From Deltaproteobacteria bacterium (GTDB lineage Bacteria > Myxococcota > Kuafuiibacteriia > Kuafuiibacteriales > Kuafuiibacteriaceae): 64,000 nucleotides of DNA. Below, in pieces: positions 1,085-40,725 of this stretch. The position numbers and the translations under genes are program-made. Position 1 is the first letter of the stretch; each line of letters starts with the position of its first letter. The DNA lies in contig JAVJQW010000060.1 in NCBI GenBank assembly GCA_040218735.1, positions 1 through 64,000 on the forward strand. The letters run 5' to 3'. The notes below the pieces were generated by a model. That model was not told where the DNA came from and searched no databases. It saw only the letters and a program-made list of their open reading frames with translations.

Positions 1085-1095
1085 GCGGAGGCCGG

Positions 1096-1839: not shown

Positions 1840-1874
1840 CGCCGGGCCCCATCGGGACCGAAAAGGCGCCTCGT

Positions 1875-25519: not shown

Positions 25520-26293
25520 TCACAGCGAGAAAAATGCCGCGGCGGTCTTCGTGGTCACGTCCGCGACGTGCTCCGGCGTGACGCCCCGCGCCTCGGCGAC
25601 GGTGTCGCGCACGTAGGTCAGGAACGCCGGCTCGTTGCGGCCGCCCTTCGGGCGCGGACGCATCGTGCGGGGGAACAGGTACGGTGCGTCGGTCTCGATC
25701 ATCAGACGGTCGTCGCCGATCAGCTTTACGTCTTCGAGCAGGTGCGTGCCGCGACGCTCGTCGCAGATCCAACCGGTGATGCCGACGTGCAGATCGAGGT
25801 CGAGGTACGCCTTCAGCTCGTCCCGCGTGCCCGTGTAGCAGTGAATGACCGCGCCCTTCAGCGCGTCGCGGTGCTGGCGGAGGATCGCGACGAAGCGTTC
25901 GTGCGCCGCGCGCTCGTGGAGGAACACGGGCAGCTGGAGCTTCGCGGCGAGCTCGAGCTGCGCTTCGAACCAGCGCTCCTGCACGGGCCGCGGGGAGAAG
26001 TCGCGATCGAAGTCGAGGCCGCACTCGCCGATCGCGACGACGCGCGCTCTCGAAGCGAGCTCGGTGAGCGTGTCGATCGTCGCGCCGTCACAGGACTTCG
26101 CGTCGTGCGGGTGCACGCCGGCCGTCGCGTACTGCGCCTTGTCGTCGGCCATCGCCGCCGCCGCGCGGCTCGCGCCGACGCTCGTCCCGGTGATCACCAC
26201 GCGGTCGACGCCCGCCTCCGCGGCGCGCGCGAGCACGCCGTCGAGGTCCTTCGCGAAGCGTTTGTTCGTGAGGTTGACGCCGATGTCGATCAC
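25520..26293 (-). CDS. tatD: TatD family DNase
   Basis: DIGVNL, TAGVHPH, IGECGLD, LHER, IHCYTG, ETDAPY, RNEP. Confidence 0.93.
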   Translation of the reverse strand: MIDIGVNLTNKRFAKDLDGVLARAAEAGVDRVVITGTSVGASRAAAAMADDKAQYATAGVHPHDAKSCDGATIDTLTELASRARVVAIGECGLDFDRDFSPRPVQERWFEAQLELAAKLQLPVFLHERAAHERFVAILRQHRDALKGAVIHCYTGTRDELKAYLDLDLHVGITGWICDERRGTHLLEDVKLIGDDRLMIETDAPYLFPRTMRPRPKGGRNEPAFLTYVRDTVAEARGVTPEHVADVTTKTAAAFFSL

Positions 26294-27534
26294 TTCTGGC
26301 CGGGAAGAGACAGCGTGCCCATCTCCCCCGTCAAGCTCACGGCGCCGGCGCCCTGGTCCTCGTCCGCGATCGACAGCCCGCCCGGCGCGTGCGCGAGGCG
26401 CGACTGGATCCGCGCGAGCGCGTCCTCCGCCTTGGTGCGGAGGACGGCGTCGACCAACCCGTTGAGCACACGCCGCAGCTCGGGCACGGCGTCTCGCCCG
26501 CCCGCGATGCCGAGGGCCTCCGCCGCCGCGAGCTTCGCTTCCAGACTCTGGTACCTCAGCGTGCGGAAGAGCTGCGGCTCGTACGGGGTCTGACCCTGGG
26601 CGACGGCGGCGACCCACCGGCACGTCGCCGCGACCGTCTCGGCGTCGTCGCGTCCGAAGAGGTACGTGACGATCGCGTCGGGGAGCGCGAGACGGTGCCT
26701 TCGCGCGAAGTCGAGCGCGTGCAGGCGCGTCGCGCCGTCCTGGTGACGGAGCACCTTGGTGAGTGTCTCGATGCGCGCTTCGGCGTCGAGCGCGGTGAGG
26801 AGCCGCGTGAGCGCGAGGAGGCGGACGCGTGTGGGCGCGCGCTTCGCATGGAAGATCGCTTCGACGTGGGCGAGGTCGCTCGGGTCGTGCGCCGCGAGGT
26901 GCGTGGCCGCGTCGAGTCGAAGCTCGTAGTCGAAGTGCGCGAGCAGCATTCGCGCGGCGCGGCGCGTCTCGATGTCGTCGCCGAAGTACGTCGTCATCAG
27001 CCCGAAGTTCTTGCGACGCACGGCGACGCGCTCGTCGCTCGTGACGTTGTTTGCGAGGCGCTCGACGACGGGCGCGTCGTTGGAGAGCACCCGTACGAGA
27101 TCGAGCATGCGCCGGACGAACTTTGCGACGGCTTTTCCGTCGAGCTCGCCAGAGATGCGTCCGCGGAGGACGCGCGCCGAGCCTTCTTCGAGTCGCACCT
27201 GGCGGTGCGCGACGGTCGCCCCGCCCTTCACGACCACGTCGACCGTGGCGGCGCGCGCTTCGTGGTGCATGAGCGAGAGCGTCGCGGCCTCGGGGCCCAT
27301 CAGGAACACGCGGGCGTCGAAGCCTTCGTCGCTGGTCTGCAGTCCGCGGAACGGCGCGGAGGTGGAGATGGGTCGGATGGTGAGGTCGGCGAACGTGGGG
27401 CCGCCCTGGACCACGACACGTTCGAGGCGGCCGTCCTTCTTGCCCTCGATGCGGACTTCGCATCCGTCGACGACGCCCGCCAGGGTGCGGGCGAAGAACG
27501 ACTTCGACAGCTCGAGGCCGAGCTCCCAAGCCAC
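26290..27534 (-). CDS. HEAT-repeat-containing hypothetical protein
   Basis: Helical repeats such as KLAAAEALGIAGGRDAVPEL; overlaps the tatD start (GTGA). Confidence 0.7.
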   Translation of the reverse strand: MAWELGLELSKSFFARTLAGVVDGCEVRIEGKKDGRLERVVVQGGPTFADLTIRPISTSAPFRGLQTSDEGFDARVFLMGPEAATLSLMHHEARAATVDVVVKGGATVAHRQVRLEEGSARVLRGRISGELDGKAVAKFVRRMLDLVRVLSNDAPVVERLANNVTSDERVAVRRKNFGLMTTYFGDDIETRRAARMLLAHFDYELRLDAATHLAAHDPSDLAHVEAIFHAKRAPTRVRLLALTRLLTALDAEARIETLTKVLRHQDGATRLHALDFARRHRLALPDAIVTYLFGRDDAETVAATCRWVAAVAQGQTPYEPQLFRTLRYQSLEAKLAAAEALGIAGGRDAVPELRRVLNGLVDAVLRTKAEDALARIQSRLAHAPGGLSIADEDQGAGAVSLTGEMGTLSLPGQK

Positions 27535-28283: not shown

Positions 28284-30257
28284 TCACTCGTAGATGAGGG
28301 TGACGGGGTCGGCCTGCGCGTATTGGCCGTCCACGACGAACTCCACCGAGGCCTTGCTGACCTCCGACCCAACGATCGGGAGGTCGCTGATCTTGAAGAA
28401 CTGCCCCTGGATCGGTCCCGGCGGGATCTCGTGGAGGTCGAAGATGGCTTCCTTGTCGTCGAACCCGACCACGCGGAGCTTGGCGTCCTCGATCGCGTCC
28501 GGCGCGTCGTCGGCGATGCCGATGTAGAGCAGCGCCGACGGGTCGTCGCCGAGGAAGAGGCCGCACGTCGGGCACGCGATGATAATCGGCTGCGGGACCA
28601 TGTGCGGCACCGAATAGGGCGTGTGGAACTGGGCGCTCGGGCACGGGTTCGAGGTGCCCGCGGGCGCGTGGGAGTACAGCGTCGCGTAACACGGAAAGCC
28701 CAGCTCCTGCCCCGTCACGGCGCCGCCGAAGTCGAGCTCGGTCATGGTCGTGGCGGCGAAGCTCAGGTTCGTCGCGCTTTGGTCGGCCCCCGGGTCGCCC
28801 GCGTCACAGCTCGGAACGTTGAGGCAGTCACCACGCAGGACACACACACGACGCACCGCCCGACAGAACGAGACGCGGCGCGTCTGGGTCGCGCAGGACG
28901 TACCGTTACAGAAATCGACACCGACGCCCGGGAGCGGGATCGCCCGGTTCTGGATCAGATCCATCACTTGGTGGCGTGACCACGTGGGCTGGTATGCCCA
29001 CACCGTTCCCGCCGTTGCGGCGACGGCCGCCGCGGCGACCGACGTACCGGTGAGCGCCGTCGAGTGCGGCTCGCCCACGCGCGTCATCGCGACGTGATCC
29101 GCCGGAGCGACGAGCCTCGGACGCGAACCCGCGCGCTCGATGATCAACGGTCGGTCTCGCCCATCGACGGCCCCCACTGCGTACAGCAGCGGCGTGTAGA
29201 CCCCGGCCTGTGACCCGATGGTGATCCCGAGGGGCGTGCAGCGCGTCTGGTCCGGCGCCGGCTCGGTCTCCCACCCCGCGGGGAAGGCCGGCCCGGTGGA
29301 GGCGCCCGCGCGGCCGGGGAGATTGCCGGCGGCGGCGATGACGAGCGCGCCGCGACACGCCGCGTAGGTGACCGCGGAGTACACCGCGCGCGTCGGGGGA
29401 TCGAGCGTGTTCCATCCGCTCGACACGTCGCCGCCCCAGTAGGGATCCCAACCCAAGCTGAGGTTGACGACGATCGGTCCGGAGCCCTGCGACGCGGCGA
29501 AGTCGACCGCCGAGACGATGGCGCGCGCGGTGTCACTCAGCCGACCGACGAAACCGCCGGACGACGTGTTCAAGACGAGCTCGTGCGTCACGCTGTCCCG
29601 CTCGAGCGCGATCGCGAGGGTCGAAGCCACGTCGACGCGGCACGTCGGACTCGTGTCCCCGAGGGGGCACCCCAGCTTTCGCCCGATCTCACCCATGATC
29701 CGACCGTGATCGAGCTGCCCGGTCCCTGGTTCCGGGAACCCGGTGTTGATCGCCGAGTCGACGACCATCATCCGAGCGCGAACCGGCGGGTTCATCGGCG
29801 GCGGGAAGAACTTCACCGTCGGCGGCGTGCGATCGTCGATCTGATCCAGGAACGCGGTCTCGTACGCGGCCGCGTTGTCCTGAGACCACTGCGACCCGTA
29901 GGCCGCGACGACGTTGCAGTCCGGCTTGGCGCCGGTGGGGAGCAACGACAGGTTCGGCGTCGGGCCCCCGTGCCAATCGTAGACGCAGTATCGCGCGAGC
30001 TCTTCGTCCGACGTCCCTGGGAACACGTGGGCGGCGTCCCAGTTGCCGACGCTCTTGCAGTCATAGGGCCCCGGCGCCGGCAGAATCGCGATCTGACGGG
30101 TTCCAGGACACGCCACTGCCTTGGAGGGCGGGTCGCTATAGCAGATTCCGGAAGCAGTACAGGACAACGCGTTCGTCGCAACGGCCAGCTCGTCCGGTTC
30201 GGCTCGGCACGCTACGAGAATCAAGGAAGTGAGGAGAAGTGCGTCAGATCGTCTCAT
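28284..30257 (-). CDS. S8 family (subtilisin-like) serine peptidase lipoprotein
   Basis: LVAC lipobox; VVDS (Asp), DHG (His), AAAGN, TGTSVAA (Ser). Confidence 0.85.
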   Translation of the reverse strand: MRRSDALLLTSLILVACRAEPDELAVATNALSCTASGICYSDPPSKAVACPGTRQIAILPAPGPYDCKSVGNWDAAHVFPGTSDEELARYCVYDWHGGPTPNLSLLPTGAKPDCNVVAAYGSQWSQDNAAAYETAFLDQIDDRTPPTVKFFPPPMNPPVRARMMVVDSAINTGFPEPGTGQLDHGRIMGEIGRKLGCPLGDTSPTCRVDVASTLAIALERDSVTHELVLNTSSGGFVGRLSDTARAIVSAVDFAASQGSGPIVVNLSLGWDPYWGGDVSSGWNTLDPPTRAVYSAVTYAACRGALVIAAAGNLPGRAGASTGPAFPAGWETEPAPDQTRCTPLGITIGSQAGVYTPLLYAVGAVDGRDRPLIIERAGSRPRLVAPADHVAMTRVGEPHSTALTGTSVAAAAVAATAGTVWAYQPTWSRHQVMDLIQNRAIPLPGVGVDFCNGTSCATQTRRVSFCRAVRRVCVLRGDCLNVPSCDAGDPGADQSATNLSFAATTMTELDFGGAVTGQELGFPCYATLYSHAPAGTSNPCPSAQFHTPYSVPHMVPQPIIIACPTCGLFLGDDPSALLYIGIADDAPDAIEDAKLRVVGFDDKEAIFDLHEIPPGPIQGQFFKISDLPIVGSEVSKASVEFVVDGQYAQADPVTLIYE

Positions 30258-30268
30258 CTTAGTCCCTC

Positions 30269-30295
30269 TATGCGGCGGCCCTCGAAAAACTCACG
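30269..30295 (-). promoter_or_regulatory. Putative ECF promoter CGTGAG-N16-GCATA for the S8 gene
   Basis: Minus strand CGTGAGtttttcgagggccgccGCATA; same boxes and spacing as the copies at 34473 and 34532. Confidence 0.65.
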
Positions 30296-32990
30296 GCACA
30301 TAAACTCGAAATGCTGCCCAGTCCGAAGCGCTGTCGGTCGCCAACGCCGACAACTGGGCCGCCCGCAAAGACTTGGAGAGTGCGAGATCGGGATCCTTGT
30401 AGAGATTCGACGTCACAAGTCTCGCATCGCCATCCTTGACCTCGCGCGTCGTGGCAATGACGGCATGACTACCCGCGAGCACGAACGCGCGGGCTGGACC
30501 GACCTCGTTCGTATGAGGCGGTGCAGTCGTGCAGCCCGAGAGTACGACGCGAGCCGGCACACTCGGCAGCGCCAGGATGTCGGCCACACCGAGGAGCGCA
30601 CGTCCGGCGAGCGGTAACGCCGCGCTGAACCCAACCTCCGCGTCATCCGTTCCGTGCCCAGCCCAGTGGAGCAGTGAAACACCGCGAATCGAACTTTCGA
30701 GGCGTCGGCGTGTTACGGACCGCCCCTCGAGGATCCGTGTTTCGACGCCCCCCGCTCGTAGTTCATCACCTACCGCGCGTGCTTCGTCGCGCGCGTGTGG
30801 GAGGTTGCCCGTCGGGTCCGCAACCACGAGCGCACGCCCGTTTGCCTTGTTCGTCGTAGGTACGGCGAACCCGCCCGAAGCGTAGATGATCTCGTAGGAC
30901 GCAACGAACGGTCGACCGTTCCAAGGAAGAGCGTGAAAGTCGATGTGTTGGGCAAGGTCTCGCGCCACAATTCTCACACGTGTCCGCCCGTCGAGTTGTC
31001 GAGTAAACGGTTGGAGCAGCAAGGTCGTGAGCACGGTCGGCGCCGCGAAAACATCGATCGCGCTCCGACGAACCCAACGTCTTGATTCCTCCGTCTCGGC
31101 CAGTACGATCCAGCCGTCACCGAGTCGATCAATCGTGAGCACGACCTCCCCGGGTGCGGGAGCGTGACGATCGACCCGACCGCTTCGACCCGGCCCCAAC
31201 ACTCGAAGCGCGGCTGTGAGCGAGGACCGAATCTCCTCCTGTAGTCGAGCGCGCGCCCGCGCCCGACTGCCTCGCGTGGTGTCAGCGTCCGACCAGGCAT
31301 CCGAGTCGAACCCGTCCAGCTGAGCTCGAAGTGCGTTGTAGGTCATCGCGGCCCGCTCCCATTCGCGTCGGTCCACGCCTCTCAGCGAGGCTATCCGAAA
31401 GCTCCGTTCGACGACTCGCTGCGATCGAAGCGCATGGCGATGGAGAACCTCGACGGCCCTCTCCCCGCCCCGAAGCTCCAATGCCAGACTCGCGTGCCGA
31501 CGCGCGGCACTATTCATCGCGTCAATGTTGAAGCGATGTCCCGGAATGGCGAACGGCACGTCCTTCGAGGCCTCGAGTATCGCCTCCGCGGCTTCGTAGG
31601 ACTCGAGGGCCCGACGCCGATCCTCGGACGCTTCGAAAGTGCTCGCGCGCCCGATGGACGCACTCCACCGCAGGGTGTCGGCCCCCACGCGTTCCCCGAG
31701 CGCCTCCAACCCCTCGTAGCCGGCCAAGGCCTCGCCGAACTTGCCTGCGCGCGTCGCAAGACGAGCAAGGACGATCAGCGACCAAGCATCGACTTCGGTC
31801 ACGCTGGGTGCCCCGTCCTGCTGCGCCCGCTCGACGTAGCTTCTCGCCCGGTCGTCGTCTCCCGAGTGAAGCGCATCGAGTGCGAGCGTAACTTCGACGT
31901 TCCGTGCGTTGATGAGGTTCGGGCAACCCACTTGATAGATCGCAAGGGCCCGTTCCCCATCGGTTCGAGCATCGAAGGACGGGTCGCGTCCGAACTCGTC
32001 CGCAAGCACCGCGACCCACGCTCGATTACCTAGAAAGCGAGCAACTGCGCACGACGCCTGGGAGAGAGGCATCTCCGTCGCCATGTGGCGATAGAGCGCA
32101 TTCGCCTGTTCATGAAGTCCGAGCGTCCCCAAGACGTCCGCTCGAATCTGCGCCGCCTGATGCGCGGCGACATCCTCGAGACGGCGGCCGAAGCTCTCGG
32201 AGCGTCGAGCGAGCTCGATCGCACCGCGCGCATCGCCGACCTCACGCGCGAGAACGGCCTCGTAGAGATCGATATAGGCAGGCTCCCCCCCGAGTGTGTG
32301 GGGAAGTCGTCGCTTCGCCTCCAGGATGGCGCGTCTCGCCGTATCGACGTCTCGTGTCACCACAGAGCCAATCCAGGCGATTGTCCCAAAGGCGTAGACC
32401 GGCCCCGAGATCAGCTCCGCGTACTCCCCAAACGTGGCACTGAGCCTGCGTTGACGGATCGCCTCCTCGAAGCTCGCCCCACTGAACGCGATCCTCGCAC
32501 GCATCGTCGCCACGTCGGCGAGCGTGCGCACGTCCGCGCCCTCCTCGTTCGCGTCGAGGATCGCCAACGCCGTCGTCGCCGACTTCGTGCGCAGCGCGTC
32601 CGCCTTCACGAGCCAGGGCGGGCGCTTCCACACCACGACCGGGAGCGCGTACTTGTCGCGGCCCCTCCGCGTCGCGACCACGTCGATCGACTTGGTGGCC
32701 GTCGTGACCTCGAAGGTCGTGCGCCAGCCGCCATCGACCTCCGTCCACTCGACCTCCGTGCCTTCGACCGTCAGCTTCGACTCGGGTGCCGCTTGGACCC
32801 AGAGCACCACCTTCGTGTCGTTCTCGATCTCACAGATCGGTCCGCGTCGGATCTGTTCGCAGCCCGCGATGCGGACGTCTTCGATCAGCGATTCCGGGTC
32901 GGGTTCGCGCGTTCGTTCTCGGCACGCGACGAGCGCGAACGAAATTCCCAAGATGAGCTCAAGGCGCCGCACCGAGCGGCTGGATCTCAA
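30291..32990 (-). CDS. CHAT-domain (caspase-like) protease lipoprotein with helical/TPR-like region
   Basis: LVAC lipobox; VVADPTGNLPHARDEA, HWAGHG (His), VLSGC (Cys), AFVLAG, DWAAF. Confidence 0.88.
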   Translation of the reverse strand: MRSSRSVRRLELILGISFALVACRERTREPDPESLIEDVRIAGCEQIRRGPICEIENDTKVVLWVQAAPESKLTVEGTEVEWTEVDGGWRTTFEVTTATKSIDVVATRRGRDKYALPVVVWKRPPWLVKADALRTKSATTALAILDANEEGADVRTLADVATMRARIAFSGASFEEAIRQRRLSATFGEYAELISGPVYAFGTIAWIGSVVTRDVDTARRAILEAKRRLPHTLGGEPAYIDLYEAVLAREVGDARGAIELARRSESFGRRLEDVAAHQAAQIRADVLGTLGLHEQANALYRHMATEMPLSQASCAVARFLGNRAWVAVLADEFGRDPSFDARTDGERALAIYQVGCPNLINARNVEVTLALDALHSGDDDRARSYVERAQQDGAPSVTEVDAWSLIVLARLATRAGKFGEALAGYEGLEALGERVGADTLRWSASIGRASTFEASEDRRRALESYEAAEAILEASKDVPFAIPGHRFNIDAMNSAARRHASLALELRGGERAVEVLHRHALRSQRVVERSFRIASLRGVDRREWERAAMTYNALRAQLDGFDSDAWSDADTTRGSRARARARLQEEIRSSLTAALRVLGPGRSGRVDRHAPAPGEVVLTIDRLGDGWIVLAETEESRRWVRRSAIDVFAAPTVLTTLLLQPFTRQLDGRTRVRIVARDLAQHIDFHALPWNGRPFVASYEIIYASGGFAVPTTNKANGRALVVADPTGNLPHARDEARAVGDELRAGGVETRILEGRSVTRRRLESSIRGVSLLHWAGHGTDDAEVGFSAALPLAGRALLGVADILALPSVPARVVLSGCTTAPPHTNEVGPARAFVLAGSHAVIATTREVKDGDARLVTSNLYKDPDLALSKSLRAAQLSALATDSASDWAAFRVYVP

Positions 32991-33690
32991 CCGAAAGCTC
33001 GAATGATTGCCACCCGTTGCCGGTCGTCACGCCGCCTCGTTCGTCGGGTTCCGGAAATGCATTCGCGCGCCCCACGAACGCAACGAATTTCACCGGTCCT
33101 GTCTGTCCTGCGCTCAACTCCCGAGCGACGCCCAGCCACCGCACCGCGCCGTTCACCGAGACCTCGGGCGCCACCGGCGACCGTACCGCGCGGTCGGCGG
33201 TCACGACCCACAGCGCACCGTCGATCTTCCCCGAAGCGATCCGCGCCGGCTGCGAGACGATCGACATCTCGGAATCCTCGCGCAGCGTGCGTGACTTCGG
33301 CTTCGCCTCGCTACGCCAGATCGCATCACCCGCCTCCGCCTTGAACGTGTACTGCGGTATCGCCTCGACCCCCGCCGTCGAGAACAACAGCACCGCGGCC
33401 GCCGCCGCGAGGACGACGCCCACGCCCGCACCGACCCACGGCAGCCGCCGAACCTTGGCGCTCGAGGTTCGTGCCGTCGTCGTCAACTTGGCTTGCACGT
33501 CGGCGCCGAGCGGCCGGAACAGCGACACCGCCTCCGCGAGCTTCTCGTCCTGTTCTGCATCGCGGAGCAACGCCGACATCTCGTCGTCCGAGAGCTCCCC
33601 CAGCGCGAGGCGCTCCAGACGCGGATCGATCTGTTGCTCCTGCTCTGTCATGAGCTCACCTAGCTGATATGCAACATCGTCGTCAGACAT
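32959..33690 (-). CDS. Membrane-anchored anti-sigma-factor-like protein
   Basis: Acidic helical N-terminus (LERLALGELS), one TM (GVGVVLAAAAAVLLF), C-terminal beta-rich domain; overlaps both the sigma and CHAT genes. Confidence 0.7.
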   Translation of the reverse strand: MSDDDVAYQLGELMTEQEQQIDPRLERLALGELSDDEMSALLRDAEQDEKLAEAVSLFRPLGADVQAKLTTTARTSSAKVRRLPWVGAGVGVVLAAAAAVLLFSTAGVEAIPQYTFKAEAGDAIWRSEAKPKSRTLREDSEMSIVSQPARIASGKIDGALWVVTADRAVRSPVAPEVSVNGAVRWLGVARELSAGQTGPVKFVAFVGRANAFPEPDERGGVTTGNGWQSFELSVEIQPLGAAP

Positions 33691-34342
33691 GACGACCCTC
33701 GTCCGACTCGATTTCGTTTCGTAGCTCGCGCAACATCTTCGTGAGTCGGCTGCGCCACGCGTAGAGCGCCTGCTTCGTCGTCCCCGTGGAGTCTGCCGCG
33801 TCCTGCACCGACATGTTCTCTACGTACAGCAGCGAAAAATACTGCCGCCCGCGGGGACTCAAACGTTCGCGCAGACGCTCCGACAACCGATCGAGCAGAT
33901 CGCGCGACTCGATACGCTCCATTACGCCTTCGTCCTGCCCGGACAGGTACACCAGCCGATCGTCCATCGTCGGATCCTCGGTCCACGGATTCCGCTTCCC
34001 GGTTCGCATCAGCATGCCGACCTCGCGCTCCGCGAGGAAGCCCACGAACCCCGCGAACGAGAGCCCACGCGACGGATCCCACTGACGGAGCGCGCGCCCC
34101 TCGCGCGCGAACAACGCTGCGAAGACCTCCTGCACGAGGTCCTCGAGATCCGTACGCAGGTCACGCCCCCGCGACTGCTGCTTGCGCCTCAACATCGCGC
34201 GCGCCGCACGGGTGTGCACCACGGGCGCGAGCGCTGCCACCAGCGCGTCCATCCGCTCCGCGTCTCCCTTCAGCGCGCGGTCGACCCACTCTTGGATCTC
34301 ATCGGCGCTCCTCTCATCGAGTCCGGCCATCGCTTTGGTCAC
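33683..34342 (-). CDS. ECF RNA polymerase sigma factor
   Basis: Region 2 DLEDLVQEVFAALF..WDPSRG; region 4 LSPRGRQYFSLLYVENMSVQDAA..ALYAWRSRL; GAGG upstream of GTG 34342. Confidence 0.88.
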   Translation of the reverse strand: MTKAMAGLDERSADEIQEWVDRALKGDAERMDALVAALAPVVHTRAARAMLRRKQQSRGRDLRTDLEDLVQEVFAALFAREGRALRQWDPSRGLSFAGFVGFLAEREVGMLMRTGKRNPWTEDPTMDDRLVYLSGQDEGVMERIESRDLLDRLSERLRERLSPRGRQYFSLLYVENMSVQDAADSTGTTKQALYAWRSRLTKMLRELRNEIESDEGRHV

Positions 34343-34472
34343 TCGTCGACCTCGTTTTCTGCGGCGCGTGTTCGTCCAGACGCTCGTGGCGAGGCAGGCG
34401 GACGCTAGAGCCTCCGCGGGATCGTCGCAACACGAGCAGGTGTCCCAACCTCTCGACACCTCGCCTAGTCGC

Positions 34473-34499
34473 TATGCAACCGCACCTCAAAACCTCACG
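34473..34499 (-). promoter_or_regulatory. Putative autoregulatory ECF promoter CGTGAG-N16-GCATA
   Basis: Minus strand CGTGAGgttttgaggtgcggttGCATA upstream of the sigma gene. Confidence 0.7.
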
Positions 34500-34531
34500 C
34501 GATCCGCCGCTGGTTCTTCTTCGCGGCCCAT

Positions 34532-34558
34532 CGTGAGATCCGCCGCGCCCTCGGCATA
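34532..34558 (+). promoter_or_regulatory. Putative ECF promoter CGTGAG-N16-GCATA for the tyrosinase-like operon
   Basis: CGTGAGatccgccgcgccctcgGCATA, 45 nt before ATG 34604. Confidence 0.7.
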
Positions 34559-34603
34559 TCCCTCCGCGAGCGAACGAAAACCCAACGCTCGAAAGGAACG
34601 CAC

Positions 34604-35854
34604 ATGCTGAGAACTTCAATCGCGACCGCCGTCGCCTTGGGGACGTTCGTCCTCGCCGCGCCGGCCTTCGCCGTGGGCCCCAACCCCGCGTGCAGCTGGT
34701 ACGGCTCGATGTCGACCCAGGAGTACGTCTTCTACAACCAGACCGGAATCACCGGCTTCGAGCGCGGCTTCCTCATCCACTCCGGCGACTACGACACCGC
34801 CAACAGCCGCATCGACTACACGATCGAATACCTCTCCGACCCGATGGACTGCTCCGGTGAGCTCTTCATCCTCCGCTTCCCGCTGCACGGCCTCGCCGAC
34901 CACGTCGAGATCGAGGTGTACGAAGCGGCCGGTCCCCTCCTCGGCGGCCTCGTCGCCGACAAGGGCACGCTCCCTACGATTTACGACCACACGAACACCC
35001 CGCTCTCCCCTGGCGTGCTCGGCCCGTTCGTGATCACCAACCCGATGATGAACCAGGTCTCGCGCATCCTCCTCTTTCCGCTCCTCGACGCGCGCACCCT
35101 CGCCGCCGTCCCCGAGCCCCTCACCTACAACGGCGCCGCGCCCGCGAACTGGGTTCAGGAGCTCTTCATGGGCATGGCCTACCAGTTCGCGGTCGGCCAG
35201 CGCTCCGAGCTCTACTCGCTCTTCACCTTCCGCCGAATGCTCGTCGGCATGAACGCGGCCGCGCGGCAGCGCGCGTCGGATGCGATCGACGCCCACGTCT
35301 ACGACGTCGGTGAGTTCGCCGCGACCGTCTGGGAAGACCACCCGTTCGTGAACCACGGCGTCGCGGTGACGCCGTACGTCGCCGGCGTCACCTGGGGCGG
35401 CTTCTTGAACGGCCACAAGAAGTACCTCGAAGCCATGGAGGACCACCTCTTCACGCTCCCCGACGCCGAACGCACCCCGTTCCGCCGCACCCCCGCTTGG
35501 AACTCGGACCAGACCGTCCCCGCCGAGTTCAACATCGGCATCAACAACACCACGTCCGTCCAGGTGATGCCCGGGTCGTACGACCCGTCGGTGATCTGCT
35601 CCAACTACGACCCCACGACCTACGCGGGCGCGACGTACTACGACCAACTCATCGCGGCCGAGATCGACATCGACGCCGACATCGAGCCCTGGCACGGCAA
35701 CACCCACGTCGACCTCGGCGGCGACATGGGCAGCGTCGCCACCGCCGGACGCGCGCCGATCTTCTTCCCCTGGCACACCACCATCGACGCCCCCTGGACC
35801 AACTGGCGCCTCTGCTGGCCGGCCTGGGATCCCGACGACTACGACTGGTTCTAA
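34604..35854 (+). CDS. Secreted protein with C-terminal tyrosinase-like (type-3 copper) domain
   Basis: Signal peptide (AFA); CuA-like EDH..NHG..FLNGHKKYL; CuB EPWHGNTH..GGDM..PIFFPWHTTID; AAAGGAA RBS. Confidence 0.75.
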   Translation: MLRTSIATAVALGTFVLAAPAFAVGPNPACSWYGSMSTQEYVFYNQTGITGFERGFLIHSGDYDTANSRIDYTIEYLSDPMDCSGELFILRFPLHGLADHVEIEVYEAAGPLLGGLVADKGTLPTIYDHTNTPLSPGVLGPFVITNPMMNQVSRILLFPLLDARTLAAVPEPLTYNGAAPANWVQELFMGMAYQFAVGQRSELYSLFTFRRMLVGMNAAARQRASDAIDAHVYDVGEFAATVWEDHPFVNHGVAVTPYVAGVTWGGFLNGHKKYLEAMEDHLFTLPDAERTPFRRTPAWNSDQTVPAEFNIGINNTTSVQVMPGSYDPSVICSNYDPTTYAGATYYDQLIAAEIDIDADIEPWHGNTHVDLGGDMGSVATAGRAPIFFPWHTTIDAPWTNWRLCWPAWDPDDYDWF

Positions 35855-35869
35855 ACGGAGGACCCCACG

Positions 35870-37354
35870 ATGAAGACCACAGCACTCACCGCCGCGTTCA
35901 CGCTGCTCGCAAGCAGCGCGTACGCCCAGAACGTCCTCGTGATCATCGGCGACGACATCGCCGTCGACAAAGTCAGCTCGTACGCGGGTGACTACCCGGG
36001 CTACGCGCCCGCGTACCTCCCGCAGACGGACGCGATCGACGGCCTCGCCGCCGCCGGACTCCGCTTCACCCGCGCGTGGGCGACGCCGCTGTGCTCGCCG
36101 ACGCGTGTCTCGTTTCAAACGGGCAAACACCCGTTCCGCACGGGCATCGGCACCGCGCTCGGCGCCAGCGCCGCTGGCGTCGACCCGGACGCGCACCTCA
36201 TGCTCGCCGAGTCCTTCCAGAACTTCGGCTACGTCACCGGCATGTTCGGCAAGTGGCACATGGGCACGGAGGACGCCGCCGGCGTCACCGGCTACCCGGC
36301 GACGAGCCCGTTCTTCGTCGAACCGCACCCACACCGCTCGGGGTGGATGCGCTTCTTCGGGCTCTACAGCGGCTACCCCGGCTTCGGGCGCAGCTTCACC
36401 GACTGGCCGCGCGTCGGCTGGGTGGACGCCACGTCGACGGGCTACGCCGCCGACGAGACCGCGCACCACACGAACCGCACCTCGGCCGTCGCCGTGAACT
36501 GGATCTCGAACCAGACCGAGCCGTGGATGGCGGTCGTCGCGTTCAGCGCGCCGCACTCGCCCGACACCGGCTCGTCGGCCTGGCAGTACGGCGACGCCGA
36601 CGTCACGCGCTACCGCACGCCGGCCCTGTCGTGCCTCGCGACGAGCTCGTGTGGCAACGAGCCGCTCTCGGTCTACCAGGGGCTCGCGGAACACGTGGAC
36701 CTGGAGATCGAAGACCTCCTCAACGGCATCCCTGACGCGATGATGGACGAGACGCTCATCATCTTCTTCGGGGACAACGGCACGCCGGTCGCGGTGCAGG
36801 AGAGCACCTTCGCGGTCGGCCGCGGCAAGGGCACCACGTACGAAAACGGCGTGCGCGTCCCGTTCATCGTCACCGACGGCGCCACGTGGCGCACCAACGC
36901 GCCGGGCCGCATCACGAGCCCCGGTCGTGACGTCGACATCGCGCTGAGCTCCACGGACATCTACCAGACGCTGCACATGGAGCTGTTGAGCGTCGGCGTC
37001 CTCGGCGTCGACTCGAGCTCGTTTGCGACGTGTTTCAGCAACACGGGCCAGTACTGCAGCATCGCGGACAAGCGCTACGGCTACTCCGAGACCTACGTCG
37101 CGGGCGCCTCACTCAGCAGCGCGCGCGTCGGGGTACGCTACGGCCACGACAAGATGGTCGCCGAGTACGACCCGGCCGGAGGCTGCATGGCCGCCGAGTA
37201 CTACGAGACGAGCGGCGATCCGATGGAGCTGTCGCCCACCGGATGGACCGGCATCCGCGCGACGCGGTTGCAGGATCACTTCACGGCGCTGCACGCCTCG
37301 GAGCCCAGCTCCTGGGCGAACCTCACCGGCTCGACGATCGGCTTCTGCCCGTGA
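35870..37354 (+). CDS. Secreted sulfatase-like hydrolase
   Basis: NVLVIIGDD, CSPTR, FGKWH, APH, GDNG, GKG..YE.GVRVP. Confidence 0.9.
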   Translation: MKTTALTAAFTLLASSAYAQNVLVIIGDDIAVDKVSSYAGDYPGYAPAYLPQTDAIDGLAAAGLRFTRAWATPLCSPTRVSFQTGKHPFRTGIGTALGASAAGVDPDAHLMLAESFQNFGYVTGMFGKWHMGTEDAAGVTGYPATSPFFVEPHPHRSGWMRFFGLYSGYPGFGRSFTDWPRVGWVDATSTGYAADETAHHTNRTSAVAVNWISNQTEPWMAVVAFSAPHSPDTGSSAWQYGDADVTRYRTPALSCLATSSCGNEPLSVYQGLAEHVDLEIEDLLNGIPDAMMDETLIIFFGDNGTPVAVQESTFAVGRGKGTTYENGVRVPFIVTDGATWRTNAPGRITSPGRDVDIALSSTDIYQTLHMELLSVGVLGVDSSSFATCFSNTGQYCSIADKRYGYSETYVAGASLSSARVGVRYGHDKMVAEYDPAGGCMAAEYYETSGDPMELSPTGWTGIRATRLQDHFTALHASEPSSWANLTGSTIGFCP

Positions 37355-39072
37355 GACGAGGGCTCATCGCAGGGTCGTTCGTCGGCCTCGTGATCGCCGG
37401 CGCGTTCCTCCTCCGTCCTTCGACGGAGGGGGCGCGCCCGGCGCCCGCCGCGTTCGTCGACGAGGCGCGCTGCGCCGGCTGTCACGCCGAAGAAGCGGAG
37501 CGTTGGCGTGGCTCTCCGCACGATCGCGCGATGGAGCTGCCCTCCCCTTCGACGGTGCGTGGTGACTTCGACGACGCGGTCTTCGAGGACACTCGCCTGT
37601 TGCGCGAGGGCGACGACTACTTCGTCGAGGTCGCGGGACGACGCCACCGCGTCGTCTACACGTTCGGCGCCGCGCCGCTGCAACAGTACTTGCTCGAAGC
37701 CGACGGCGGTCGGCTGCAGGCCTCCGCGGTCGCCTGGGACGTCGACGCCGGGAAGTGGTTCCGCGTCCAGGATCCGGCCGTGCACTACCTCGGCCGCTAC
37801 CAGACCTGGAACACGATGTGCGCCGACTGCCACTCGACCGGCGTCGACAAACGCTACGACGCCGAGACCGATCACTTCGACACGCGCTTCGCGCAGATCG
37901 ACGTCGGCTGTCAGAGCTGCCACGGCCCGGGCTCGCAACACGCCGATGACCCCGACGTCGCGCTCGCCGTTCGCAACGAGGTCGAAGCCTGCGCACCGTG
38001 CCACGCGCGACGCGCGCCGCTCACGGAGCGCGCGGATCCGCTGGAGCCGTTCACCGACCACTACCGACCGATGACGCTCCAGCCGGGGCTGTACTTCGCG
38101 GACGGACAGATCCGGGACGAGGTGTTCACGTACGGCTCCTTCGCGCAGAGCGCGATGCACGCGGCCGGCGTGACGTGCACCGACTGCCACGACCCCCACG
38201 GCGCGACGAAGCTCGCGAGCAACAGAACTTGCCTGACCTGTCACGGCGCGACGCCGCCGGATCGATTCGCGTCCCTGGCGAAGCGCAAACGCAACCTCGA
38301 CACCCCCGCTCACCACCACCACGCCGAGGGGAGCGCCGGCGCGCAGTGCACCGCGTGCCACATGCCGACGCGCACCTATATGGGCGTGGACGAGCGACAC
38401 GATCACCGCTTCGCGATCCCGCGGCCGGATCTGTCTGCGAAGCTCGGCACCCCCGACGTCTGCACCGACGCGTGCCACACCGACCGCGACGCGACGTGGT
38501 CCGCCGAGATCGTCCGTGGCTGGGGCGCCGAACGCCGGCCACACTTCGGCGAGCTTTTCGCGCGCGCCCAGGCCGGCAACCGCGACGTCCCGGCGCTCAC
38601 GCGCCTCGCGAAGAGCGACGCACCCGCGATCGTCCGCGCGACGGCGCTGGAGTGGCTCGCGATGCCGCCCGTTGCGTGCGACACCTCGCTGGTCCGCGAC
38701 CCGGACCCCTTGGTCCGCAGCGTCGCGGTGACGTGCGCGGAGGCGTTGTCGCCCACCGCGCGCGTGAAGGCGATCGGCGGCCAGCTCGAGGACGCGAGCC
38801 GACTCGTGCGCGTCGAGACCGCGCGTGTCCTCGCGCCGGTCGCGACAGCGCTCCGCGGCCCCCAGCGCGAGGCATACACACGCGCGCGGGAGGAGCTCAC
38901 CCGGATGTACACGAGCCAAACCGATCGCCCCGAGGGCCACTTCAACCTCGGCCTCCTCGCCGAGGCGGAGGGGGATCGCGATGAAGCCGCGCGTCGCTAC
39001 AAACGCGCGCTCGAGCAGGACCCGCTCTTCCGCCCGGCGCGCGTGAACCTGTATCTGATGCAGCAACGCTGA
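37351..39072 (+). CDS. Multiheme c-type cytochrome with HEAT/TPR C-terminus
   Basis: Seven CxxCH plus one CxxxCH; GTGA overlap with the sulfatase stop. Confidence 0.88.
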   Translation: MRRGLIAGSFVGLVIAGAFLLRPSTEGARPAPAAFVDEARCAGCHAEEAERWRGSPHDRAMELPSPSTVRGDFDDAVFEDTRLLREGDDYFVEVAGRRHRVVYTFGAAPLQQYLLEADGGRLQASAVAWDVDAGKWFRVQDPAVHYLGRYQTWNTMCADCHSTGVDKRYDAETDHFDTRFAQIDVGCQSCHGPGSQHADDPDVALAVRNEVEACAPCHARRAPLTERADPLEPFTDHYRPMTLQPGLYFADGQIRDEVFTYGSFAQSAMHAAGVTCTDCHDPHGATKLASNRTCLTCHGATPPDRFASLAKRKRNLDTPAHHHHAEGSAGAQCTACHMPTRTYMGVDERHDHRFAIPRPDLSAKLGTPDVCTDACHTDRDATWSAEIVRGWGAERRPHFGELFARAQAGNRDVPALTRLAKSDAPAIVRATALEWLAMPPVACDTSLVRDPDPLVRSVAVTCAEALSPTARVKAIGGQLEDASRLVRVETARVLAPVATALRGPQREAYTRAREELTRMYTSQTDRPEGHFNLGLLAEAEGDRDEAARRYKRALEQDPLFRPARVNLYLMQQR

Positions 39073-39132: not shown

Positions 39133-40725
39133 CTACCGGCGACGCCGTCGCGCGCACCACAGCGCGCAGAGCACCAGCCCCACGACGAGCCCGGGCGATC
39201 GGCGGCGTCCGTGCGTCGCGCACGCGCAGCCCTCGTCGAGCTCGACCTCGTCCGGCGCGGTGACCGTTCCGCCGTCACGGACGACCCCCGCGTCGAGCGT
39301 GCCCGCGTCGACGACACCGGCGTCCGGCGCGGGCATCGTGCAGTCCTCCCGCCCCCGCGTCACGTCGACGGTCACCGCGGTCCAGCCCTTCGACCGCGCG
39401 CCCTCCCGTCGCTGCGCCACGGCGAGGATCTGCGTCTCGCCGTCGGCCGCCCACGCGTGGCAGCGAAGGATCACGCCGTCCGCGCTCTGTTCCACGACGC
39501 GACCGTTCACGAGGAGCGTGAGGTCGAACCGCTCGCCCTCCGCGTCACCGACGACGCCGATCTCCACCGCCCCGTCGATCACGTCGCCGTCCGCGACGCC
39601 GATCAGCTCGACGGTCGGCCGGTCCGCGTAGGGCGCCGCCATCGGATCGCCGAGCACGAGGTTGCGCCAGTACACGAACGGCATGCGCTTCAGGTACGCC
39701 TCCGCGAGGGTGTAGCCGTCGACGTAGTCGACGAGCAGGTGCCGCGACGGGAAGCAGTTGTTGAGCGGCTCCGCGACCGCCCCGTGCGCGCCCGCCACGC
39801 CCTGCTCGACCCAACGGGCGATGGAGACTTGCGCCTCGTCCTCGGGCGCACCGAAGTTCGCGGGGACCGCGCCCAGGCTCGTGAGGTTGTCGACGATCGC
39901 GCCCGGCCGAAACGTGTTGCCCTCGATCGTCGTGTCGAGCCGCGCCGTCCCCACGAAGAACGCCGCGAGGGTGTGGCCGGTCTCGTCGCGTGAGAACGCG
40001 GGCCGCGAGACGTCCGTGAACCCGCGCGCGTCGAGCGCGGCCATCACCGCGTCGTACTCACGATCGAGCACCCCCCGCGCGTTGTCGGCGCCGTCCATCA
40101 GCATGAACGTTCCGTCAGCGCCGCCGAGCGCCTCCGCGGTGGTGGCGCTCGCGATGAGCCGCTCGACGTCCCGCTCCGTGCGCGCGTCGAGCGCGGTGAC
40201 GAGTCGTAACGACCACTCCACGTTCTGGCCCGTCGCGACGAAACCGGGCTCGAACGGCCCGTCGCGGTACGGGTTGCGCCACGTCGCGGAGTAACACGGG
40301 GTGTTGCCGCACATGACCCGCACGCCGGCCGGCTGCCCGACGAAGTCCGCGCCGGTCGAGGTCCGCGAACCGCTCACCCCCAGCACCGCCGCGAGGGACG
40401 CGACGCCCCCCTGTAGGTTCACGCGCTGGGGCACGCCGCGCACGAGCACGACCGCCTCGATTCGATCCCACGCTTCGCCGAGGCACGCGACGAGCGGCGC
40501 CTCCAGCGCGTCGCGGAACACGGCGACATCGATGGTGGCCTGCGTCGGGAGGTCGAGCAGGCACACGTGCTCCCGTGGGATGTCGCGCGCCGCGCGGTAG
40601 CGCTCGGCGAGCCGCACGCTCGCATCGTCGTTGACGTTCGCGACGACCGCGACCGAGTCGGGCCCCGGCACCGCCCACGCGGCGCTCGGCGCGAGCCCGA
40701 CGACGATCGCGATCAGGCGTCTCAT
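39133..40725 (-). CDS. TIGR03790-like protein with MYXO-CTERM-like tail
   Basis: [24 protein letters not shown] motifs; C-terminal GCAC + TM + RRRR. Confidence 0.8.

What the first reader, a model, noticed from the sequence alone, without database searches (positions are those of the whole stretch)
28284..39072. ECF sigma / membrane anti-sigma / lipoprotein CHAT-protease cassette: a candidate proteolytic trans-envelope signalling system
Seen: three overlapping genes encode an ECF sigma (33683-34342), a single-TM protein with an acidic helical N-terminus (32959-33690) and an 899-aa CHAT protein. The CHAT protein has an intact His/Cys dyad (HWAGHG, VLSGC) and a lipobox, so it is predicted to be exported. 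An S8 protease lipoprotein follows, and a divergent operon of secreted enzymes faces away. Known: CHAT domains are caspase-like proteases, and in type III-E CRISPR the TPR-CHAT Csx29 cleaves Csx30, which binds a sigma factor. Inference: here a CRISPR-independent, extracytoplasmic CHAT senses a cue with its helical region and cleaves the outer domain of the anti-sigma. This would release the ECF to switch on the flanking secreted enzymes. ECF-CHAT gene neighbourhoods may already be noted in ECF classifications; the mechanism and regulon are my inference.
Basis: partly seen in the sequence, partly recalled or inferred. Interest (0 to 1): 0.88.

Follow-up and report, generated by a model that had tools for sequence, protein, structure and literature searches.

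The report
Split protease-gated ECF sigma switch
A conserved four-gene unit pairs an alternative sigma factor and its membrane inhibitor with two exported proteases (one caspase-like, one subtilisin-like); it looks like a split version of the Myxococcus DdvS/DdvA switch and here probably turns on a set of secreted enzymes.

Summary
On the minus strand lie an ECF sigma, a single-pass anti-sigma-like protein, an 899-aa TPR-CHAT lipoprotein with an intact His/Cys dyad and an S8 subtilase lipoprotein with an intact triad. A three-gene operon of secreted enzymes faces away.

The real unit has four genes, S8 included.
- This 11.6-Mb genome holds 14 strong TPR-CHAT paralogues. 12 have sigma plus anti-sigma nearby and 9 also have S8, in five gene orders.
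- In 20 loci from 18 other Myxococcota genomes, S8 sits beside the CHAT gene in 20 and sigma plus anti-sigma in 17.
- Two natural fusions of anti-sigma to TPR-CHAT exist, one in this genome.

By sequence profile and Foldseek, the closest solved relative is DdvA of Myxococcus xanthus, a fused TPR-CHAT anti-sigma.

A bipartite motif (CGTGAG-N17-CATA) lies upstream of the sigma gene, the S8 gene and the divergent operon. Elsewhere in the genome it precedes secreted M10 and M14 peptidase genes.

Cleavage of the anti-sigma by CHAT remains inference. The cassette was noted before by this scan in other genomes. I rate it a new variant of a known kind.

The parts
33683..34342 (-). ECF-type sigma factor gene (the longest ORF extends to 34459)
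   Evidence: TIGR02937 at 46.8 bits against a cut-off of 42.9. Sigma70_r2 and r4_2 are below threshold. The paralogue profile aligns from about residue 39 of the long ORF.
32959..33690 (-). Single-pass anti-sigma-like protein: cytoplasmic helical domain (4-78, no zinc ligands), TM helix (about 84-104), conserved [LI]PxY, periplasmic Ig-like beta-sandwich (114-237)
   Evidence: Translation. 31-sequence alignment A2. AlphaFold model with pLDDT 85.9. zf-HC2 found in 5 of 31 family members. 746 representative clusters at E<=1e-30.
30291..32990 (-). TPR-CHAT lipoprotein: lipobox signal, beta-sandwich (36-120), TPR superhelix (125-596), CHAT protease domain (615-898) with H779 and C820
   Evidence: Model with pLDDT 88.4 and pTM 0.87. 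Foldseek top hits are DdvA 8rw5/8rot. VIA-align Z is 20-24 to Csx29, separase and DdvA.
28284..30257 (-). S8 subtilase lipoprotein with an intact Asp167/His184/Ser406 triad and conserved cysteines
34473..34499 (-). Candidate ECF promoter (CGTGAG-N17-CATA) about 130 nt upstream of the sigma start
   Evidence: The same motif sits upstream of sigma in loci L013, L015, L018 and L025.
30269..30295 (-). Second copy of the motif. It begins at the CHAT stop codon and ends 11 nt before the S8 ATG, so it is a candidate internal promoter for S8
   Evidence: The position is conserved, 9-13 nt before the S8 start, in L013, L015, L018 and L025; a copy also lies at the CHAT-S8 junction in L023.
34532..34558 (+). 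Third copy of the motif, 45 nt upstream of the tyrosinase-like gene. It is a candidate promoter for the divergent operon
34604..39072 (+). Divergent three-gene operon: tyrosinase-like protein, sulfatase, and a cytochrome with seven CxxCH motifs plus TPR, all with N-terminal export signals. These are candidate regulon members specific to this locus
   Evidence: Not conserved beside other cassettes.

Best explanation
This is a four-component trans-envelope signalling module.

The resting state: the ECF sigma is held at the inner membrane by the cytoplasmic helical domain of the single-pass anti-sigma. The anti-sigma's small Ig-like outer domain sits in the periplasm close to the membrane. The TPR-CHAT lipoprotein is a periplasmic caspase-like sensor-protease, equivalent to the periplasmic domain of the fused anti-sigma DdvA.

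Proposed activation (inferred): when a cue, probably a protein or peptide, engages the TPR region, the His779/Cys820 site is activated. It clips the anti-sigma's outer domain or the short juxtamembrane segment (site-1 cut). An RseP-type M50 protease then cuts within the membrane and the sigma is released.

Proposed output: the free sigma transcribes from CGTGAG-N17-CATA promoters. These precede its own operon, the S8 gene (through its own promoter, as a near-leaderless mRNA), the divergent secreted-enzyme operon, and unlinked genes for secreted M10 and M14 peptidases. S8 is therefore primarily an induced exported protease. It may also feed back on the switch.

Status of each step:
- Shown by sequence: the four families, their conservation as a unit, export signals, intact active sites, the natural fusions, and the distribution of the motif.
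- Inferred: sigma binding by the anti-sigma, the identity of the site-1 protease, the cue, and that the motif is this sigma's promoter.
For: Module conservation:
- Of 14 strong TPR-CHAT paralogues in the genome, 12 have sigma plus anti-sigma within 8 kb and 9 also have S8, in five different gene orders.
- In 20 loci from 18 other genomes of 5 families, S8 is adjacent in 20 of 20 and sigma plus anti-sigma in 17 of 20.
- Clustering of all ORFs from 36 loci found no other widely recurrent family; the next one, a Ser/Thr kinase with TPR, occurs in 4 loci.
- Distance matrices of the four families over 22 cassettes correlate at r 0.83-0.91, and 0 of 2000 permutations reach this.

Coupling of anti-sigma and CHAT:
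- P0059 (1178 aa) and the own-genome ORF at C23 (1056 aa, next to a sigma gene) each carry the full anti-sigma architecture followed in frame by the TPR-CHAT.
- P0059 has no signal peptide at the junction. The junction of the C23 ORF was not inspected.
- hhalign against A2 gives probability 99.3 and 96.5. The C23 ORF against A1 gives 99.95.

Kinship to DdvA:
- The profile of A1 hits DdvA 8rot_B at E 1.4e-12, against 4e-3 for craspase.
- Foldseek ranks 8rw5 and 8rot first (E 7e-14 and 7e-13, 16-18% identity over 853-940 columns).
- DdvA is proposed to cut itself as the site-1 protease ahead of RseP (PMC11506125, passages read).

Anti-sigma identity: 5 of 31 family members match zf-HC2.

Site-2 protease: M50 genes are present, at 220 and 201 bits.

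Promoter motif:
- 2 exact hits in the window against 0.04 expected, both in the divergent intergenic region.
- A third copy lies 11 nt before the S8 ATG.
- In the five closest orthologous loci there are 13 hits against 2.5 +/- 1.4 in shuffles, 6 of them just upstream of S8.
- Genome-wide there are 9 hits at spacing 17 against 0-4 at eight other spacings. 7 of the 9 lie directly upstream of the sigma gene or of genes for secreted proteins.
- The layout resembles the mapped DdvS promoters, GTAA-n16-CGT (PMC6061681, figure legend read).
Against: - No cleavage, binding or expression data exist for any component.
- By VIA-align the CHAT model is no closer to DdvA (Z 20.6) than to Csx29 (Z 24.0) or separase (Z 22.4). 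The special kinship to DdvA therefore rests on sequence profile, Foldseek rank and context, not on fold score.
- DdvA has an alpha-helical scaffold where this protein has a beta-sandwich.
- The window's anti-sigma lacks the zinc motif and matches no family by itself.
- S8 is as strongly conserved in the module as CHAT, so it could equally be the site-1 protease.
- 5 of the 14 own paralogous loci lack S8 and 2 lack any sigma or anti-sigma. One other-genome locus (L016) has no sigma or anti-sigma within 5 kb.
- The motif was derived partly from the window's own sigma upstream region.
- No motif common to all cassettes was found. Most other cassettes show an ordinary ribosome-binding site, not the motif, before S8.
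- In L023 the motif near the sigma gene lies on the opposite strand.
Confidence: 0.45

Rival explanations
1. S8 is the site-1 protease that removes the anti-sigma's outer domain. The TPR-CHAT lipoprotein is the sensor or adaptor that controls S8, for example by cleaving an S8 pro-segment or by presenting the substrate. This would be a two-protease cascade.
For: - S8 is adjacent to the CHAT gene in 20 of 20 loci from other genomes and in 9 of 14 own loci, despite shuffled gene order.
- Its catalytic triad is invariant in 27 of 27 relatives and most carry a lipobox, so it shares the compartment with the anti-sigma's outer domain.
- It co-diverges with the anti-sigma (r 0.86).
- A sigma-dependent promoter on S8 would give positive feedback.
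Against: - 5 of 14 own cassettes and both natural fusions lack a nearby S8 yet keep sigma, anti-sigma and CHAT, so S8 is dispensable in some versions.
- The fused DdvA system has no reported S8: 'subtilisin' occurs 0 times in the main text of PMC11506125.
- An enzyme made only after sigma release cannot start the signal, unless basal read-through from the operon supplies it.
Confidence: 0.2
2. CHAT and S8 are only outputs of the sigma, that is, induced envelope or extracellular proteases. They do not regulate it. The anti-sigma is inactivated by some other, unlinked mechanism.
For: - Genes in an autoregulated ECF operon are outputs by construction.
- S8 has its own copy of the candidate promoter, and the rest of the candidate regulon is secreted peptidases.
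- The authors of the ECF classification warn that conserved neighbours can be either regulators or targets (PMC7826278, passage read).
Against: - Two independent in-frame fusions join the anti-sigma to the TPR-CHAT, and the fused DdvA exists. These argue for a physical and regulatory link, not mere co-expression.
- The pairing persists through five gene orders and across five families of the phylum.
Confidence: 0.2
3. The TPR-CHAT acts without proteolysis of the anti-sigma. It binds the anti-sigma's outer domain as a shield or co-sensor (as RseB does for RseA). Its protease activity is directed at an external substrate, or at itself, and this releases the shield.
For: - In DdvA the bulky TPR-CHAT blocks RseP access. 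The dyad mutants H862A and C907A behaved like wild type under the conditions tested (PMC11506125, passages read).
- TPR domains are protein-binding modules.
Against: - The His/Cys dyad is invariant in 44 of 44 aligned relatives, so catalysis is under selection.
- No binding data exist either way.
Confidence: 0.1

Closest known systems
DdvS/DdvA of Myxococcus xanthus (PMC6061681; PMC11506125; PDB 8rot, 8rw5)
   Same: - An ECF sigma is paired with a single-pass anti-sigma, and the periplasmic partner is a TPR-CHAT module with a His/Cys dyad.
- It occurs in the same phylum.
- DdvA is the best PDB hit by sequence profile (E 1.4e-12) and by Foldseek.
- The published model is CHAT-mediated site-1 cleavage followed by RseP.
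- The promoter layout is similar (GTAA-n16-CGT there, GTSAGR-n16-CATA here).
   Different: - Here the anti-sigma and the TPR-CHAT are separate genes, and the CHAT is a lipoprotein.
- The anti-sigma has its own Ig-like outer domain.
- The CHAT protein starts with a beta-sandwich in place of DdvA's helical scaffold.
- The window's anti-sigma lacks the zinc motif.
- An S8 subtilase is a conserved fourth member.
- The candidate regulon is secreted hydrolases, not CBASS/CRISPR-Cas.
- Sequence identity is only 16-18%.
Type III-E CRISPR craspase: Csx29 (TPR-CHAT) cleaving Csx30, which is linked to a sigma factor (PMC10028731, abstract seen; PDB 8eey, 8d9g)
   Same: - The TPR-CHAT fold matches at VIA-align Z 22-24.
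- A caspase-like protease is linked to control of a sigma factor.
   Different: - Craspase is cytoplasmic, RNA-guided and bound to Cas7-11.
- This protein is exported, has no CRISPR partner in the cassette, and scores only E 4e-3 by sequence profile.
ECF54 genomic context in Actinobacteria (as summarised in PMC8999054, section 3.3, passage read)
   Same: - An ECF sigma is conserved beside proteins with subtilase, CHAT and carboxypeptidase domains, and regulation by proteolysis has been proposed.
- Here an M14 carboxypeptidase gene carries the candidate promoter.
   Different: - ECF54 is described as lacking an anti-sigma, whereas this module has one.
- ECF54 is actinobacterial.
- I could not assign the window's sigma to an ECF group because no group models are on hand.
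Classical regulated intramembrane proteolysis of anti-sigmas (such as RseA by DegS then RseP), as reviewed in PMC11506125
   Same: - A single-pass anti-sigma, a periplasmic site-1 protease and an M50 site-2 protease.
- M50 genes are present in this genome.
   Different: - The candidate site-1 enzyme is a caspase-like TPR-CHAT lipoprotein (or an S8) encoded inside the module, not a housekeeping PDZ protease.

Membership tests
ECF sigma-70 family | Sigma-2 and sigma-4 regions only, scoring over the family threshold | tested here: met
   TIGR02937 at 46.8 bits against a cut-off of 42.9, residues 71-245. Pfam r2 (22.5 against 24) and r4_2 (20.3 against 25.7) fall just below gathering score.
Class I (ZAS-type) anti-sigma factors | HxxxCxxC zinc motif in the N-terminal anti-sigma domain | tested here: not met
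   The window protein has no such motif and no zf-HC2 hit. 5 of 31 aligned family members do match zf-HC2, so the family includes zinc anti-sigmas and the window copy is a zinc-less variant.
Class I (ZAS-type) anti-sigma factors | Binds its cognate sigma through the N-terminal helical domain | not tested
   Support comes only from context: translational overlap with the sigma gene and a helical N-domain in the model.
CHAT / caspase-like clan CD peptidases (PF12770) | CHAT domain with a catalytic His-Cys dyad | tested here: met
   PF12770 at E 1.3e-23. H779 and C820 are invariant in 44 of 44 sequences. The fold matches Csx29, separase, DdvA and gingipain at Z 20-24.
DdvA-type TPR-CHAT anti-sigma | Anti-sigma domain, TM helix and TPR-CHAT in one polypeptide | tested here: not met
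   In the window they are two genes. Fused relatives exist elsewhere: P0059, and C23 in the same genome.
DdvA-type TPR-CHAT anti-sigma | Alpha-helical scaffold (stem, midrib, tip) that forms the arrow-shaped dimer | tested here: not met
   The model has a beta-sandwich at residues 36-120 before the TPR. The DdvA alignment covers chain residues 347-991 only. Dimerisation was not tested.
DdvA-type TPR-CHAT anti-sigma | Periplasmic TPR-CHAT encoded next to a cognate ECF sigma | tested here: met
   Lipobox signal. Sigma lies within 8 kb in 12 of 14 own loci and in 17 of 20 other loci.
Type III-E craspase (Csx29) | Cytoplasmic TPR-CHAT associated with Cas7-11 and Csx30/31 | tested here: not met
   The protein has an export signal. 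No recurrent partner beyond the four families appears in 36 loci. PADLOC gives only a weak BovA hit at E 5e-5.
Subtilase S8 | Asp-His-Ser triad with the oxyanion Asn | tested here: met
   PF00082 at E 4e-11. D167, H184, N312 and S406 are invariant in 27 of 27.
ECF54 context | ECF54-group sigma with no anti-sigma, beside subtilase, CHAT and carboxypeptidase proteins | tested here: not met
   An anti-sigma-like protein is present and conserved. Assignment of the sigma to a group is not testable with these tools.
Regulated intramembrane proteolysis | M50 site-2 protease available, and sequential cleavage of the anti-sigma | tested here: inconclusive
   M50 genes are present in the genome at 220 and 201 bits. 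Cleavage itself cannot be tested here.

The most novel reading that the evidence does not exclude
Large myxobacterial genomes run many insulated copies (at least 9 complete ones here) of a periplasmic caspase-like sensing channel. In each, a TPR-CHAT lipoprotein recognises a distinct extracellular protein cue, such as prey, phage or kin. It cuts its own cognate anti-sigma and fires a dedicated ECF sigma. That sigma's regulon is a specific arsenal of secreted proteases and other exoenzymes, delivered partly from leaderless mRNAs. The co-conserved S8 closes a positive-feedback loop by generating more of the cue. Because the protease and its presumed substrate are on separate polypeptides, the split form would be the tractable system in which to show that bacterial CHAT domains are site-1 proteases.
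Probability: 0.25. Interest if true: 0.8.

Novelty: new variant of a known kind. Interest (0 to 1): 0.63.

Why it matters
- The only studied TPR-CHAT anti-sigma, DdvA, left open whether its CHAT domain really performs the first cut and what cue triggers it (PMC11506125). In the split form the candidate protease and candidate substrate are separate, soluble-domain proteins, so a direct cleavage assay is possible.
- The module is widespread. The anti-sigma family alone has 746 representative clusters at E<=1e-30, yet it has no family name.
- In this genome the module is amplified to at least 9 complete copies. It may therefore be a major, uncharacterised route by which soil predators sense their surroundings.
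- The candidate promoter gives a concrete, testable regulon of secreted peptidases and enzymes.

Tried and rejected
- phmmer of the sigma, anti-sigma and CHAT proteins against PDB sequences gave nothing useful.
- The search for related loci found no relative with the single CHAT protein.
- PADLOC gave no significant defence-system match for the four proteins.
- Foldseek of the anti-sigma model found no match at E<=1e-3, only generic Ig-like folds.
- A search for longer, fused relatives of the anti-sigma alignment found none. The tool itself calls this weak evidence, and fusions were later found by other routes.
- 'CHAT' ORFs of 1159-1196 aa in L017 and L027-L029 looked like fusions. I rejected them because they overlap the anti-sigma ORF in another frame.
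- A search for one bipartite motif shared by all 23 sigma-first cassettes gave nothing above shuffles.
- Complex prediction of CHAT residues 36-899 with anti-sigma residues 104-239 returned no verdict (scores 0.54, 0.00, 0.00). It counts neither for nor against binding.
- No RNA sequencing run was listed for the locus.
- The Atlas lead that the anti-sigma's outer domain resembles DUF4384 (33% of one cluster) was not confirmed. 0 of 31 members match it even at E<=1.
- Literature searches for the split module returned only the fused DdvA papers and the ECF54 remark. Table S7 of PMC11506125, which lists DdvA-like proteins, could not be seen and may include relatives of this family.

Full report
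**The observation**

- **Sigma (33683-34342).** It passes the NCBIfam ECF model TIGR02937 at 46.8 bits against a cut-off of 42.9. It sits just under the Pfam r2 and r4 thresholds.
- **Anti-sigma-like protein (32959-33690, 243 aa).** It matches no Pfam or NCBIfam family. An AlphaFold model built on a 31-sequence alignment (pLDDT 85.9) shows helices at 4-78, a membrane helix ending near 104, and a beta-sandwich at 114-237.
- **CHAT protein (899 aa).** It has a PF12770 CHAT domain (E 1.3e-23), an N-terminal lipobox, and H779 and C820 invariant in 44 relatives.
- **S8 protein.** It has a lipobox, and its Asp167/His184/Asn312/Ser406 residues are invariant in 27 of 27 relatives.
- **Divergent operon.** It encodes a tyrosinase-like protein, a sulfatase and a cytochrome with seven CxxCH motifs plus TPR. 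All three have N-terminal export signals and the genes are tightly spaced.

**The real unit has four genes**

The window lies in an 11.6-Mb genome of 70 contigs. I took six-frame ORFs of the whole genome and searched them with a profile of the CHAT family. I searched the same ORFs with iterated searches seeded on the window's sigma, anti-sigma and S8.

This found 14 strong TPR-CHAT paralogues (E<=1e-95). Of these, 12 have a sigma and an anti-sigma of the same families within 8 kb, and 9 also have an S8. Five gene orders occur among the nine:

| Gene order | Cassettes |
|---|---|
| sigma, anti-sigma, CHAT, S8 | window; C54:4.5k |
| sigma, anti-sigma, S8, CHAT | C67 |
| CHAT, S8, sigma, anti-sigma | C58 |
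| CHAT, sigma, anti-sigma, S8 | C64 |
| CHAT, anti-sigma, S8, sigma | C59; C54:177k; C61; C17:62k |

Across the phylum, the CHAT profile matched at E<=1e-30 in 63 of 301 sampled genomes. Only three candidates per genome were scored.

I fetched 20 of the best full-length matches from 18 genomes of five families.
- S8 lies next to the CHAT gene in 20 of 20.
- Sigma plus anti-sigma are present in 17 of 20.
- Two of the three misses are contig ends (L014, L024). One (L016) has 5 kb of upstream sequence without them.

All-against-all clustering of ORFs from 36 loci recovered only these four families as widely recurrent. The next family, a Ser/Thr kinase with TPR, occurs in 4 loci.

Pairwise distance matrices of the four families over 22 complete cassettes correlate at r 0.83-0.91, and no value among 2000 permutations reaches this. 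This shows that the genes are inherited and diverge as sets. It does not by itself show contact.

**What the CHAT protein is**

Its model (pLDDT 88.4, pTM 0.87) has four parts: a signal helix, a beta-sandwich (36-120), a TPR superhelix (125-596) and a CHAT domain (615-898).

- Foldseek ranks the cryo-EM structures of the M. xanthus anti-sigma DdvA first (8rw5 at E 7e-14, 8rot_A at 7e-13, 16-18% identity). Csx29 and separase follow.
- The sequence profile also hits DdvA best among CHAT proteins (E 1.4e-12 against 4e-3 for craspase).
- VIA-align does not prefer DdvA. It gives Csx29 Z 24.0, separase Z 22.4 and DdvA Z 20.6 (rmsd 7.2 over 560 residues).

The fold therefore says 'TPR-CHAT'. The closer tie to DdvA comes from sequence, rank and context.

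In the passages I read, DdvA is a zinc anti-sigma domain, a TM helix and a periplasmic TPR-CHAT in one chain. It is proposed to cut its own linker in trans before RseP acts. The signal is unknown and the dyad mutants were silent under the conditions tested. The words 'lipoprotein' and 'subtilisin' do not occur in that paper's main text. Its table S7 could not be read.

**Export and coupling**

Of 72 database relatives, 54 have a complete N-terminus with the conserved Cys pair (...AGC...GPxC...). Of those 54, 30 have a lipobox before it and 10 have another hydrophobic segment.

Two natural fusions exist.
- **P0059** (1178 aa, from a metagenome) carries HLVLCPRC, a TM helix, LPEY and the beta-sandwich. 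hhalign to the anti-sigma profile gives probability 99.3 and E 1e-20. A linker without a signal peptide follows, then the TPR-CHAT.
- **The ORF at C23 of the window's own genome** (1056 aa, directly after a sigma gene) matches the anti-sigma profile over residues 34-284 (probability 96.5). It matches the CHAT profile over residues 388-1042 (probability 99.95).

These fusions place the TPR-CHAT on the periplasmic side of the anti-sigma. They argue that the two proteins work together.

**The anti-sigma family**

The family is large and unnamed.
- A profile search of 1.84 billion representatives gave 11,043 hits at E<=1e-3 and 746 at E<=1e-30, mostly 240-290 aa.
- Five of 31 aligned members match zf-HC2. 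The window copy has lost the zinc ligands.
- A [LI]PxY motif directly after the TM helix, with Y114 nearly invariant, opens the beta-sandwich.
- Atlas neighbours are unnamed clusters from Acidobacteriota and Myxococcota.

**A candidate promoter and regulon**

No motif is shared by all cassettes. The closest cassettes are L013, L015, L018, L023 and L025, with sigma 54-60% identical to the window's where measured. Four of them (L013, L015, L018, L025) share GT[CG]AGR-N16-CATA upstream of sigma.

- **In the window.** The pattern has two exact hits against 0.04 expected. Both lie in the 260-bp divergent region: one faces sigma and one faces the tyrosinase-like gene. With one mismatch, a third copy appears. 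It starts at the CHAT stop codon and ends 11 nt before the S8 ATG.
- **In the orthologous loci.** The motif recurs 9-13 nt before the S8 start in L013, L015, L018 and L025, even though S8 is inverted in L025. A copy also lies at the CHAT-S8 junction in L023. Across the 20 loci fetched from other genomes there are 13 hits, all in these five loci, against 2.5 +/- 1.4 (maximum 6) in 100 shuffles. Four of the 13 had been used to derive the motif.
- **Genome-wide.** CGTGAG-N17-CATA occurs 9 times, against 0-4 at eight other spacings.

The nine genome-wide sites are these:

| Site | Downstream gene | Distance from CATA to start |
|---|---|---|
| C50 34499 (-) | sigma operon | about 130 nt |
| C50 30295 (-) | S8 | 11 nt |
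| C50 34532 (+) | tyrosinase-like operon | 45 nt |
| C17 52902 (+) | M14 carboxypeptidase, Sec signal | 9 nt |
| C52 120980 (-) | M10 peptidase, Sec signal | 9 nt |
| C56 102865 (+) | weak sub-threshold RTX-repeat match, signal-peptide-like N-terminus | 9 nt |
| C9 213114 (+) | second M10 peptidase | 48 nt |
| C24 69527 (-) | unassigned | none assigned |
| C37 17118 (-) | unassigned | none assigned |

The layout resembles the experimentally mapped DdvS promoters, GTAA-n16-CGT.

I infer that this is the window sigma's promoter. If so, the sigma is autoregulated, S8 has its own sigma-dependent near-leaderless transcript, and the regulon is a set of secreted hydrolases. That this sigma reads the motif is inference. 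No RNA data were available.

The flanking enzymes themselves have no homologue beside any of 35 other cassette loci. Most other cassettes show an ordinary ribosome-binding site before S8. These details therefore belong to this subfamily.

**Mechanism**

The best-supported reading is a split DdvA-like switch. The periplasmic TPR-CHAT lipoprotein senses a cue and makes the first cut in its cognate anti-sigma. An M50 protease, present in the genome, makes the second cut. The released sigma then induces itself, S8 and secreted enzymes.

The main rivals are these:
- S8 makes the first cut, under CHAT control.
- Both proteases are outputs only.
- CHAT acts as a shield rather than cutting the anti-sigma.

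**Comparison and novelty**

The nearest known system is DdvS/DdvA, but the window fails its defining single-chain architecture and lacks its helical scaffold. Craspase shares the fold, but not the compartment or the partners.

The ECF54 context (subtilase, CHAT and carboxypeptidase beside an ECF, with no anti-sigma; PMC8999054, passages) is a parallel in Actinobacteria.

My five literature searches found no description of the split four-gene module.

This scan has noted the same cassette before in other genomes. My results agree with those notes and add four things:
- the amplification to at least 9 complete copies in one genome;
- the fused copy in the same genome;
- the S8 promoter copy;
- the candidate regulon.

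I rate it a new variant of a known kind.

Noticed in passing
G000 contigs C66, C42, C67, C58, C54, C17, C64, C59, C61 and C56 (loci L033-L044): The genome carries 14 strong TPR-CHAT paralogues. Nine of them form complete sigma, anti-sigma, CHAT and S8 cassettes, in five gene orders. There are two subtypes: one has a zinc-type anti-sigma and a 757-784 aa S8, the other a zinc-less anti-sigma and a 635-657 aa S8.
   Followed up: partly
L052:2965-6132 (+) = G000:C23:82964-86131: A fused anti-sigma::TPR-CHAT protein of 1056 aa sits directly after a sigma gene. It has an HLRDCRLC zinc motif and a TM helix, and no S8 lies within 8 kb. It is a DdvA-like architecture built from the same two families as the split form.
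   Followed up: partly
L034 = G000:C42:504000-515000: One TPR-CHAT gene is flanked by two separate sigma/anti-sigma pairs and no S8. It may be one sensor serving two switches, or a recent rearrangement.
   Followed up: no
L048:939-2531 (+); L049 about 674-1946 (-); L050:902-1855 (+); L051:687-1940 (+): Unlinked genes carry the same CGTGAG-N17-CATA motif. They encode an M14 carboxypeptidase, two M10 peptidases and a protein with a weak, sub-threshold RTX-repeat match. Three of them have the ATG exactly 9 nt after CATA, which suggests leaderless mRNAs.
   Followed up: partly
L025:12132-14000 (-): In another genome, a 623-aa protein with a signal peptide and no Pfam family sits between a copy of the motif (9 nt before its start) and the sigma operon.
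   Followed up: no
window 39133-40725 (-): A TIGR03790-family protein (E 4.5e-37) lies just beyond the divergent operon. The family has no assigned function in the hit table.
   Followed up: no
window 25520-27529 (-): The longest ORF is 669 aa, but its TatD DNase domain occupies only residues 414-667. The N-terminal 400 residues may be an over-extended start or an extra domain.
   Followed up: no
L013:2800-5724 (-) and three other loci (L022, L026, L030): A Ser/Thr protein kinase with TPR repeats recurs next to the cassette in 4 of 36 loci.
   Followed up: no
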